Part shown: positions 2,209 through 64,000 of the stretch, one piece after another
How the letters are laid out: each line of letters begins with the position of its first letter
Numbering within the stretch: position 1 is the stretch's first letter
DNA from: Methanococcus aeolicus Nankai-3
GTDB taxonomy: Archaea > AGJL01 > Methanococci > Methanococcales > Methanococcaceae
Direction of reading: 5' to 3'
NCBI RefSeq assembly: GCF_000017185.1
Contig: NC_009635.1
Location: forward strand, 248,563 to 312,562
DNA length: 64,000 nucleotides
Made by a program: the position numbers and the translations under genes
Notes under the pieces: model-generated
The model's database searches: none
Seen by the model: the letters and a program-made list of their open reading frames with translations, nothing else
What the model was told of the DNA's origin: nothing

Positions 2209-3129
2209 TTATAAAGGTTTCAATGGATACTTTTTTTTACAGACAGGACAGCCCCACCGTAAATCACAAATACTACATGTTTCTTTATCTGCTGGTTTGT
2301 CTATGTTCCAATTTCCTAATTCTTTACATTTTTCAATTTCTTTAACTGTGTTTGAGAAATTTTCCATAGCTTCCTTTATTTTTTTAATATTTTTTTCATC
2401 TTTAAAATCAATAATATATTTTGGTTTTGGTGATTTTATTCTATTGAGCTCATTTACAAAATATAAAATACATTTTGAAGGATACCTTCCTGTCTGTTGT
2501 TTAAGGAGCTCCCCATAAATAAGCATTTGATATTCATATTTTTTAAGTTTATCTTCATCTTTTGATGGAAATAGCATTCCTTTATAATCCCAAATTTCGA
2601 ATTCTCCGTCCTCATTTTTTGCGATTACATCCATTACACCATATAACAAATAATCTCCCATATCTGCCTGTAATCTTACCTCCGTATCAATAATTTTAGG
2701 ATAAAGGTGTTTTCCCTCAATTTTATTAAATTTTTTTAGGAGCTCCTTTACTTGGGATATTAATTTATTATTTTCTTTACTTATTGGAATTATGCCCCTT
2801 GATTTTAATGTTTCGTTTGCTTTATTGAGGAGCTCCTCAACATCTGCTTCTGTTGGTAGCGGGTCTTTTTCAGTCAATCCCCCTTTTATAAGTTTTATAT
2901 TGTGTAAGTATCTTCTATGAAGCATACTTAAAACTTGGTGAATTAAATCACCATGCCATGCCTGAGTTTTTTGGGTGCTGGAAAATCCTTTTACAGTATT
3001 AAATCCATACTGTCTTTTGCATAGTTGATATGATAGTATATCTGCTGTAATACTGTATCTTTGCTTTATTTTTTCCTTTTCTTCCTTTTTCTTTATTTTT
3101 AAGGATTTATAGGAATTTAATTCCATCAT
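2209..3129 (-). CDS. PD-(D/E)XK nuclease of the Cas4/AddB type with a Cys cluster
   Basis: Motifs GVMDVI (D), EIWDYKG (E-x-K region) and QMLIYGELL (QxxxY). One N-terminal Cys (YQLCKRQY) plus C-terminal CSICDLRWGCPVC match the 4-Cys Fe-S arrangement of Cas4/AddB nucleases. Sits 17 nt downstream of the helicase gene on the same strand. Confidence 0.7.
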   Translation of the reverse strand: MMELNSYKSLKIKKKEEKEKIKQRYSITADILSYQLCKRQYGFNTVKGFSSTQKTQAWHGDLIHQVLSMLHRRYLHNIKLIKGGLTEKDPLPTEADVEELLNKANETLKSRGIIPISKENNKLISQVKELLKKFNKIEGKHLYPKIIDTEVRLQADMGDYLLYGVMDVIAKNEDGEFEIWDYKGMLFPSKDEDKLKKYEYQMLIYGELLKQQTGRYPSKCILYFVNELNRIKSPKPKYIIDFKDEKNIKKIKEAMENFSNTVKEIEKCKELGNWNIDKPADKETCSICDLRWGCPVCKKKYPLKPL

Positions 3130-3146
3130 ATTAATTCCCCATTTTT

Positions 3147-5402
3147 TTAATTAATTTTATTTATATTATTCTTAAAATACGAAGTATTTTTAATATATAT
3201 TTTTAAATTATTTGGGTGTTCTTTTATAAATCCATATAATTTATGGTTATTTTTTTTGTCTATTATATCAGATGTCCATAAATGTATAAGCCCATATTGA
3301 GCCCGAGAGTATGCCACATAATGAAATCTAATAATATCTTGAAATGTTTTTTTTCGTGGTATTGTGGATATTCTCTTAAAATCCGTAAATTCTGCAAATT
3401 CTCGTTCTAATATTGCCCCGTCATTTGCTTTATTCTGCCATTTTTGGAGATATACAAACACAAACGGAAATTCTAAACCTTTTGCCTGATGCACCGTCAT
3501 TATAGGAACTTTTCCTTCTGGAATAGTTATTTCCTCGTCCTCAATATCGTCAATACCCCCTAAAAAGTGCCCCACCAATGAGCCGTAAAATTCTATTAAC
3601 CATTTTACATCAACTTTACCTTTGGTGTGCCCATCAATTGAAATACTTCCTTTGCTTATTAAATTTTCCGTGGGTATTGTAGAATAGCTATTAAATAAAT
3701 TTGTTAATTTTGCCAACCTATAACTTTTTTCCTCGTCATTTAGCCATTCCGTAAATGGATAACAGGCATATATTTTATAAAGTATATTTTCAATGGAAGA
3801 ATTAATAAAACTGCCCTCTTCCATAGTTTTTAGTTTTTCTACACTACTATCCACATATTTTTTCAATTCTGGATATTTATTTTTATTGTTTTGATATTCC
3901 TCATACCATTTTACAACTTCGTTGCTAATAGGTTGAGACCTTAAATTATTTTCTAAAACGCTTATGTCGGTATCAACAATAGATATAAACGCCCCCAACG
4001 CCAATTTTATTTCCTCTTGATTTAAAAAATTCTTTGACCGTGGATTATATATGTCAATTCCATTATTCAATAATTTTTGTCTAATATGCCCAATAAATGA
4101 ATCATTGCCATTATAATCAATTTCCCTTGTGCTTTTTATTAATATTACGCATTGGGAGTAATCCTCAATAATATCATTGTCTTTAAAATATTTTATAGTA
4201 TTTGCAACCTCTTCGGCTAATTTCTCATCGTCTTCTTTTTCAATATAATTTAAAGCTAAATAATTGTCAATTGTTTCTTTATCCATTTCTTTTTTTGCCA
4301 CTAATTGCGGTTTATCCTTTACTCTGGCTCGTTCCATTTCCACATCTTTTGTATATTTATATGAATTTATGTAGTCATCATAATATTTTACAATATCTGG
4401 GTGGGAACGATAATTTGATTTTAAAAATATTTTATTAATTTTATCTATGGGAATATTGAATTTTTCTACACAGGTTTTATCAAAATTTACCATACATTCT
4501 ACTGTTCCGCCCCTAAACCTATACATAGCTTGGTCATCATCGCCAACAACACATAAATTATTATTTTCAATTTGTTTTGCCATTTTGAAATATATTTCCT
4601 CTTGAATTGGATTTGTATCTTGGTATTCATCTACCATAATATGTTTTATTGGTGGATTATATCCCGAGCCACTTAAAAACAATTCGCCGTCTTCTGAGTT
4701 TAGAAAATCTATAAATTTTAATTGAATTGTTGAAAATGTGCACAATTTAAATCCTTCTAATTTTTCCAAATATTTTTCGCATTCCTCGGCTAATTTTTTA
4801 TGGTATATTTTGCCATTTTTCAATTTATCAATATTAACTTTATCTTCGATAATTCTATTAAATAAAGTGATGGTTGCACTGGTTAGCCGAGCTTTGTTTT
4901 TATAATCAATTATCTGACAGCATAAATCTTTATCATATCTACCTACTAAACATCTAAATTTAGTCCATATCTCTTTATATCTAGCTCCATATTTTGCAAT
5001 GGGACAGTAATTATATACAAATATATAATTTTCAATTTCATTTATTAGTTTGTAATTTTCGTAGTCTGTATATTTGTATTCCTTCATTATGTCATTGCAT
5101 AAACTATGAAGTGTGCCAACTCTTAAACTGTGTATTTCTATGGAGCTCCCTTTTAATTCTGGATATAAATCATATAATTTAGTTGAATATTTTATAATTC
5201 TATCAAATAGATTTTGTGATGCCTTTTTTGTAAATGTGGTCAAGATTATTGATTTAGGATTAACTCCATCTACAAATATTAGTTTTAGCGTTCTAACTAC
5301 CAGAACTTCTGTTTTACCAGAGCCCGGACCTGCTACTACCCACAGTGGATTATCTTTGTGATTTACACTATTTTTTTGCTCCTCATTAAATTTATATCCC
5401 AA
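3147..5402 (-). CDS. UvrD/Rep-family superfamily 1 DNA helicase
   Basis: Walker A VVAGPGSGKTEVL, motif II MVDEYQDTNPIQ, VVGDDDQAMYRFRGG, VHQAKGLEFPFVFV, YVAYSRAQ. Confidence 0.85.
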   Translation of the reverse strand: MGYKFNEEQKNSVNHKDNPLWVVAGPGSGKTEVLVVRTLKLIFVDGVNPKSIILTTFTKKASQNLFDRIIKYSTKLYDLYPELKGSSIEIHSLRVGTLHSLCNDIMKEYKYTDYENYKLINEIENYIFVYNYCPIAKYGARYKEIWTKFRCLVGRYDKDLCCQIIDYKNKARLTSATITLFNRIIEDKVNIDKLKNGKIYHKKLAEECEKYLEKLEGFKLCTFSTIQLKFIDFLNSEDGELFLSGSGYNPPIKHIMVDEYQDTNPIQEEIYFKMAKQIENNNLCVVGDDDQAMYRFRGGTVECMVNFDKTCVEKFNIPIDKINKIFLKSNYRSHPDIVKYYDDYINSYKYTKDVEMERARVKDKPQLVAKKEMDKETIDNYLALNYIEKEDDEKLAEEVANTIKYFKDNDIIEDYSQCVILIKSTREIDYNGNDSFIGHIRQKLLNNGIDIYNPRSKNFLNQEEIKLALGAFISIVDTDISVLENNLRSQPISNEVVKWYEEYQNNKNKYPELKKYVDSSVEKLKTMEEGSFINSSIENILYKIYACYPFTEWLNDEEKSYRLAKLTNLFNSYSTIPTENLISKGSISIDGHTKGKVDVKWLIEFYGSLVGHFLGGIDDIEDEEITIPEGKVPIMTVHQAKGLEFPFVFVYLQKWQNKANDGAILEREFAEFTDFKRISTIPRKKTFQDIIRFHYVAYSRAQYGLIHLWTSDIIDKKNNHKLYGFIKEHPNNLKIYIKNTSYFKNNINKIN

Positions 5403-5486
5403 TATTGATTCAATACATTCCCAAAATTCATTTAATGATATTGTGATAATTATCCCCTCATTTTGTTCTTGTTTCGTTTATATTAT

Positions 5487-62875: not shown

Positions 62876-62943
62876 TAACATATATTATTTATATAATTTT
62901 ATTTTTTTAATTATTTATTTTATTATTGTTTTTGAAAGGTAAT

Positions 62944-63073
62944 TATAGTTAATCTTCAATAACTGTTCCTTATCCGTCCCAAATTGAGCATATTTCTCTG
63001 TTGTTGGTAATATAATAAGAGATTTTATATTCTTTAACTATGCATTACGGAAATTGTTCGAAGATTGACTACA
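62944..63073. mobile_element. MITE copy G (130 bp)
   Basis: TATAGTTAATCTTCAATAACTGTTCCTTA...TTGTTCGAAGATTGACTACA. Ends 1-2 nt before the ATG of the next gene. Confidence 0.7.
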
Positions 63074-63074
63074 A

Positions 63075-64000
63075 ATGAATGGTAAAAATATATTATTGGG
63101 AATATCAATTTTAACAAATGTATTATTGATAATATTAATAATATCATCTGTTTATATGGTATGGAGCTCCGCCAATGATTCCAGAAATGCAATTCCATTT
63201 GAACAAATGGCAGAGGGGCAAAATTCAATCTCAATAGTAAGTCAAAAAGTCATATTTGAAGATAACAATATCTATGTGGAAGTAGTTGGTAAAAACATAG
63301 GGGATAGAGTATGCGAAGGAAGTATAACTGCTAAATTTTATGATTCGGGGTGTTATTTAATAGGTAGCACAACAGAATACATTGCTAATATTGATTCGGG
63401 CGAAACATTTAAAATAAAAATAAACAGTCCTCACAATAATAATATATCAACAGTTAATTTATCAATAAAAAGTTATGGCAGTATGCAAACTTATGACGGA
63501 GCTCCCATTCAAACCAACTATAATATTTTAAAATACAACAATAGTCAAATTATTGAAGTTGTCGGTAAAAATACAAACAATAAAAAACTTAATGGATATA
63601 TTTTAATAAAATATTATGATGGCAATAATATATTAATAGGGCAGAATGAGGTTTATTTATCTTGTGTATCCCCAAATGAGGAGTTTAAATTTAAAACCCA
63701 TTACAATACTTGGATACATAATAATTACACAATTTCAAAATGCAAAATATATTCTATCTTTGATATATACAATCCCGTAGGAGGTTATTTGAGGGAGTTG
63801 GATAATGGAAAACAAACAGATATAAAAATAATTAGTCAAAAATTATCAATGTCAAAAAATGGACAGGCATATGTAGAACTAATTGGTGAGAATACAGCTA
63901 AAAATAGTATAGGTGGAGCAAATATACAAATTAAATTTTACAATGACAATAATATATTAATTGGATGTGGGGAAAAATATATTAAAAATATAGGGGCCAA
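63075..64000 (+). CDS. membrane-anchored protein with at least three FxLYD-like repeats (partial, runs off the right edge)
   Basis: Open frame from ATG 63075 to the window end, so not in the ORF track. N-terminal TM segment. Repeated blocks VEVVGKN...AKFYDSGCYLIG, IEVVGKN...IKYYDGNNILIG, VELIGEN...IKFYNDNNILIG. Confidence 0.7.
   Translation, partial: MNGKNILLGISILTNVLLIILIISSVYMVWSSANDSRNAIPFEQMAEGQNSISIVSQKVIFEDNNIYVEVVGKNIGDRVCEGSITAKFYDSGCYLIGSTTEYIANIDSGETFKIKINSPHNNNISTVNLSIKSYGSMQTYDGAPIQTNYNILKYNNSQIIEVVGKNTNNKKLNGYILIKYYDGNNILIGQNEVYLSCVSPNEEFKFKTHYNTWIHNNYTISKCKIYSIFDIYNPVGGYLRELDNGKQTDIKIISQKLSMSKNGQAYVELIGENTAKNSIGGANIQIKFYNDNNILIGCGEKYIKNIGA

What the first reader, a model, noticed from the sequence alone, without database searches (positions are those of the whole stretch)
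2505..63505. GGAGCTCC is a highly iterated 8-bp palindrome (about 55 copies in 64 kb) in a very AT-rich genome
By eye I located GGAGCTCC starting at these positions: 2505, 2739, 2829, 5142, 5986, 6262, 6322, 6574, 7281, 7867, 9583, 9652, 11329, 11840, 14876, 19525, 20714, 20839, 21282, 21943, 22165, 22204, 24517, 24838, 25273, 25779, 26765, 26975, 27438, 27993, 28262, 29097, 31290, 32572, 33189, 34038, 35141, 35273, 36598, 42719, 48219, 49250, 51980, 52220, 53077, 53709, 55235, 56987, 57414, 59661, 61189, 62458, 62810, 63163, 63498. About 12 further GAGCTC cores have one flank changed (for example 2446, 8931, 12753, 14248, 26499, 28285, 29655, 32438, 33101, 52980, 55775, 62561).

The G+C content is roughly 30% (my estimate, not computed). 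At that composition, an 8-mer with six G/C positions is expected well under once in 64 kb.

The motif is read in all three frames:
- GGA-GCT-CCn as Gly-Ala-Pro, in LeuRS, ProRS, aIF2-gamma (three times), archaellins, FlaI, PpsA, Rpo7 and AtwA.
- nGG-AGC-TCC as x-Ser-Ser, in shikimate kinase, CbiL, RFA-P synthase and PpsA.
- G-GAG-CTC-C as Glu-Leu-x, in many minus-strand genes.

It also occurs in spacers. Using GAG/CTC/GCT/TCC codons where this genome otherwise prefers A/T-ending codons argues for selection, or a biased conversion process, acting on the DNA word rather than on a peptide.

The density of about 1 per 1.2 kb resembles cyanobacterial HIP1 (GCGATCGC) or the uptake sequences of Neisseria and Haemophilus. 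Methanococci are naturally transformable, so a DNA-uptake or self-recognition tag is one hypothesis. A methyltransferase- or repair-driven HIP-like process is another. I know of no description of such an element in Methanococcales.
Basis: partly seen in the sequence, partly recalled or inferred. Interest (0 to 1): 0.9.

Follow-up and report, generated by a model that had tools for sequence, protein, structure and literature searches.

The report
Hyper-abundant GGAGCTCC palindrome in Methanococcus aeolicus
The 8-letter palindrome GGAGCTCC occurs about once per kilobase in this Methanococcus aeolicus DNA, hundreds of times more often than chance allows, and has been forced into genes even at the cost of amino-acid changes, which makes it the first archaeal counterpart I could find of the cyanobacterial HIP1 word and of bacterial DNA-uptake sequences.

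Summary
GGAGCTCC has 55 exact copies in 64 kb of 30.1% G+C DNA and is the most frequent 8-mer. Low-order Markov models expect 0.09-0.6 copies. A synonymous-codon shuffle expects 3.0 of the 42 coding copies, and 0.01 are expected for the 13 intergenic copies.

The window is Methanococcus aeolicus. The word acts at the DNA level:
- It lies in all three frames and in spacers.
- Flanks of different copies are unrelated.
- It replaces conserved peptides (PEP, D/N-LP and GEP became GAP in aIF2-gamma).

A sister species about 90% identical keeps 14 of 16 alignable sites, against 28% for other GC-rich 8-mers. The three non-shared sites each differ at 4-5 of 8 bases.

Relatives, including Methanothermococcus okinawensis IH1, its plasmid and strain Ax23, are enriched 15-25-fold for the hexamer GAGCTC with any flanks. 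Other close relatives almost lack AGCT.

My best reading (about 0.4) is a HIP1/uptake-sequence-like recognition word, read by a trans-acting protein whose specificity has shifted and spread by biased DNA exchange or repair. The published M. aeolicus methylome shows no modification at this word (5-methylcytosine was not assayed). I found no earlier description.

The parts
2445..2452 (.). GAGCTC core with other flanks: TGAGCTCA
   Evidence: in PD-(D/E)XK nuclease gene 2209-3129(-), codons AAT GAG CTC AAT = NELN; GAGCTC also at this position in Ax23
2505..2512 (.). GGAGCTCC copy
   Evidence: PD-(D/E)XK nuclease gene (-), GGG GAG CTC CTT = GELL; Ax23 has CGAGCTCT = AELY
2739..2746 (.). GGAGCTCC copy
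   Evidence: PD-(D/E)XK nuclease gene (-), KELL; Ax23 has AAATCTTT
2829..2836 (.). GGAGCTCC copy
   Evidence: PD-(D/E)XK nuclease gene (-), EELL; Ax23 has GGAGCTCT = EELF
5142..5149 (.). GGAGCTCC copy
   Evidence: UvrD-like helicase gene 3147-5402(-), GSSI
5986..5993 (.). GGAGCTCC copy
   Evidence: kinase-like gene 5951-6661(-), RELL; Ax23 has GGAGCTCG = MELV
6262..6269 (.). GGAGCTCC copy
   Evidence: kinase-like gene (-), RELL; Ax23 has AGAACTTT = KELL
6322..6329 (.). GGAGCTCC copy
   Evidence: kinase-like gene (-), MELL
6574..6581 (.). GGAGCTCC copy
   Evidence: kinase-like gene (-), WELL; Ax23 has GGAGATGC = WEML
7281..7288 (.). GGAGCTCC copy
   Evidence: LeuRS 7031-9970(-), GAP; identical in the sister species; eight more distant lineages have GATAAAAA/G = DK(N/S), and L105 has GAAGTTCC
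7867..7874 (.). GGAGCTCC copy
   Evidence: LeuRS (-), AELP; identical in the sister species; hexamer clade has CGAGCTCC or TGAGCTCC; AGCT-poor relatives have CGAACTTC
8930..8937 (.). GAGCTC core, one flank off: TGAGCTCC on the gene strand
   Evidence: LeuRS (-), VSS; shared with the sister species; outgroups have TTGAAACA
9583..9590 (.). GGAGCTCC copy
   Evidence: LeuRS (-), GELQ; identical in the sister species; outgroups have TGACCTAT or TGATTTAT = DDLL
9652..9659 (.). GGAGCTCC copy
   Evidence: LeuRS (-), AELL; identical in the sister species; hexamer clade has GGAGCTCA = AELI; L003 and L007 have AGAACTTA
11329..11336 (.). GGAGCTCC copy
   Evidence: ProRS 10330-11703(+), GAP; Ax23 has GGAGTTCC = GVP
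11840..11847 (.). GGAGCTCC copy
   Evidence: intergenic, between tandem genes
12752..12759 (.). GAGCTC core, one flank off: TGAGCTCC
   Evidence: TPR protein gene (+), NELP
14247..14254 (.). GAGCTC core, one flank off: GGAGCTCG
   Evidence: HerA-like N-terminal ORF (+), RELA
14876..14883 (.). GGAGCTCC copy
   Evidence: HerA-like C-terminal ORF (+), RSSA; identical in the sister species
19525..19532 (.). GGAGCTCC copy
   Evidence: TraB-family gene (-), GAP; identical in the sister species; L001 has GCAGCACC = AAP
20714..20721 (.). GGAGCTCC copy
   Evidence: CBS-domain gene (+), GAP; identical in the sister species
20839..20846 (.). GGAGCTCC copy
   Evidence: CBS-domain gene (+), LELP; the sister species has GAATTTCT, 4 of 8 bases different
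21282..21289 (.). GGAGCTCC copy
   Evidence: GHMP kinase gene (+), GSSQ; identical in the sister species
21943..21950 (.). GGAGCTCC copy
   Evidence: GHMP kinase gene (+), RELQ; identical in the sister species
22165..22172 (.). GGAGCTCC copy
   Evidence: intergenic, 3 nt after a stop codon, between convergent genes
22204..22211 (.). GGAGCTCC copy
   Evidence: intergenic, between convergent genes; palindrome extends to ATCGGAGCTCCGAT, flanked by a T run and an A run
24517..24524 (.). GGAGCTCC copy
   Evidence: aIF2-gamma 24231-25463(-), AGAPG; identical in the sister species; all other relatives have AGEPG
24838..24845 (.). GGAGCTCC copy
   Evidence: aIF2-gamma (-), EGAPA; identical in the sister species; relatives have P(D/N)LPA; L184 has EDAPA
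25273..25280 (.). GGAGCTCC copy
   Evidence: aIF2-gamma (-), CGAPE; identical in the sister species; relatives have CPEPE/D; L184 has CGTPE
25779..25786 (.). GGAGCTCC copy
   Evidence: GHMP-kinase-like gene 25754-26650(+), GSSS; identical in the sister species; L184 has KNTST
26498..26505 (.). GAGCTC core, one flank off: GGAGCTCT
   Evidence: GHMP-kinase-like gene (+), GAL
26765..26772 (.). GGAGCTCC copy
   Evidence: CbiL-like gene 26644-27342(+), RSSV; identical in the sister species; L184 has AAA TCA TCA = KSS, i.e. a 3-base Ser codon switch TCA to AGC
26975..26982 (.). GGAGCTCC copy
   Evidence: CbiL-like gene (+), WSSL; the sister species has WNYL and outgroup L184 has WELL; 4 of 8 bases differ from the sister
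27438..27445 (.). GGAGCTCC copy
   Evidence: intergenic, tandem genes
27993..28000 (.). GGAGCTCC copy
   Evidence: intergenic, convergent genes
28262..28269 (.). GGAGCTCC copy
   Evidence: aminotransferase gene 28131-29246(-), VELL
28284..28291 (.). GAGCTC core with other flanks: AGAGCTCA
   Evidence: aminotransferase gene (-), MSSG
29097..29104 (.). GGAGCTCC copy
   Evidence: aminotransferase gene (-), GSSP
29654..29661 (.). GAGCTC core, one flank off: GGAGCTCA
   Evidence: ATP-cone protein gene (-), LSSE
31290..31297 (.). GGAGCTCC copy
   Evidence: intergenic, divergent genes
32427..32434 (.). GAGCTC core with other flanks: CGAGCTCT
   Evidence: SPFH/Band-7 gene (+), PSSN
32562..32569 (.). 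GGAGCTCC copy
   Evidence: intergenic, convergent genes
33100..33107 (.). GAGCTC core with other flanks: AGAGCTCT
   Evidence: 5' end of the cytidylyltransferase ORF 32592-33110(-)
33189..33196 (.). GGAGCTCC copy
   Evidence: intergenic, 58 nt upstream of tRNA-Ser 33254-33340
34038..34045 (.). GGAGCTCC copy
   Evidence: intergenic, upstream of the first archaellin gene
35141..35148 (.). GGAGCTCC copy
   Evidence: archaellin gene 34556-35215(+), EFGAP; shares CCAGAGTTCGGAGCTCC with 35273 and 36588, so these are paralogous copies
35273..35280 (.). GGAGCTCC copy
   Evidence: between archaellin ORFs; same 17-mer as 35141 and 36588
36588..36595 (.). GGAGCTCC copy
   Evidence: long archaellin gene 35346-36656(+), EFGAP
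42719..42726 (.). GGAGCTCC copy
   Evidence: FlaI 42524-44167(+), GAP; the only copy between 36.6 and 48.2 kb
48219..48226 (.). GGAGCTCC copy
   Evidence: PpsA 47864-50173(+), RSSA
49250..49257 (.). GGAGCTCC copy
   Evidence: PpsA (+), GAP
51980..51987 (.). GGAGCTCC copy
   Evidence: Trm5/Taw2-like tRNA methyltransferase gene (-), VELL
52220..52227 (.). GGAGCTCC copy
   Evidence: Trm5/Taw2-like gene (-), LELL
52979..52986 (.). GAGCTC core with other flanks: TGAGCTCT
   Evidence: small ORF 52736-53113(-), ESSD
53077..53084 (.). GGAGCTCC copy
   Evidence: small ORF 52736-53113(-), RELL
53709..53716 (.). GGAGCTCC copy
   Evidence: HTH_3 protein gene (+), GAP
55235..55242 (.). GGAGCTCC copy
   Evidence: intergenic, tandem genes
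55774..55781 (.). GAGCTC core, one flank off: TGAGCTCC
   Evidence: ELP3-like gene (-), GELI
56987..56994 (.). GGAGCTCC copy
   Evidence: intergenic, divergent genes
57414..57421 (.). GGAGCTCC copy
   Evidence: Rpo7 gene 57408-57947(+), codons 3-5 = GAP
59661..59668 (.). GGAGCTCC copy
   Evidence: intergenic, tandem genes
61189..61196 (.). GGAGCTCC copy
   Evidence: PII-like gene (+), MELP
62458..62465 (.). GGAGCTCC copy
   Evidence: ABC ATPase gene 61274-62875(+), LELP
62560..62567 (.). GAGCTC core with other flanks: TGAGCTCA
   Evidence: ABC ATPase gene (+), NELS
62810..62817 (.). GGAGCTCC copy
   Evidence: ABC ATPase gene (+), GAP
63163..63170 (.). GGAGCTCC copy
   Evidence: ORF 63075-63998(+), no Pfam match, WSSA
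63498..63505 (.). GGAGCTCC copy
   Evidence: ORF 63075-63998(+), GAP

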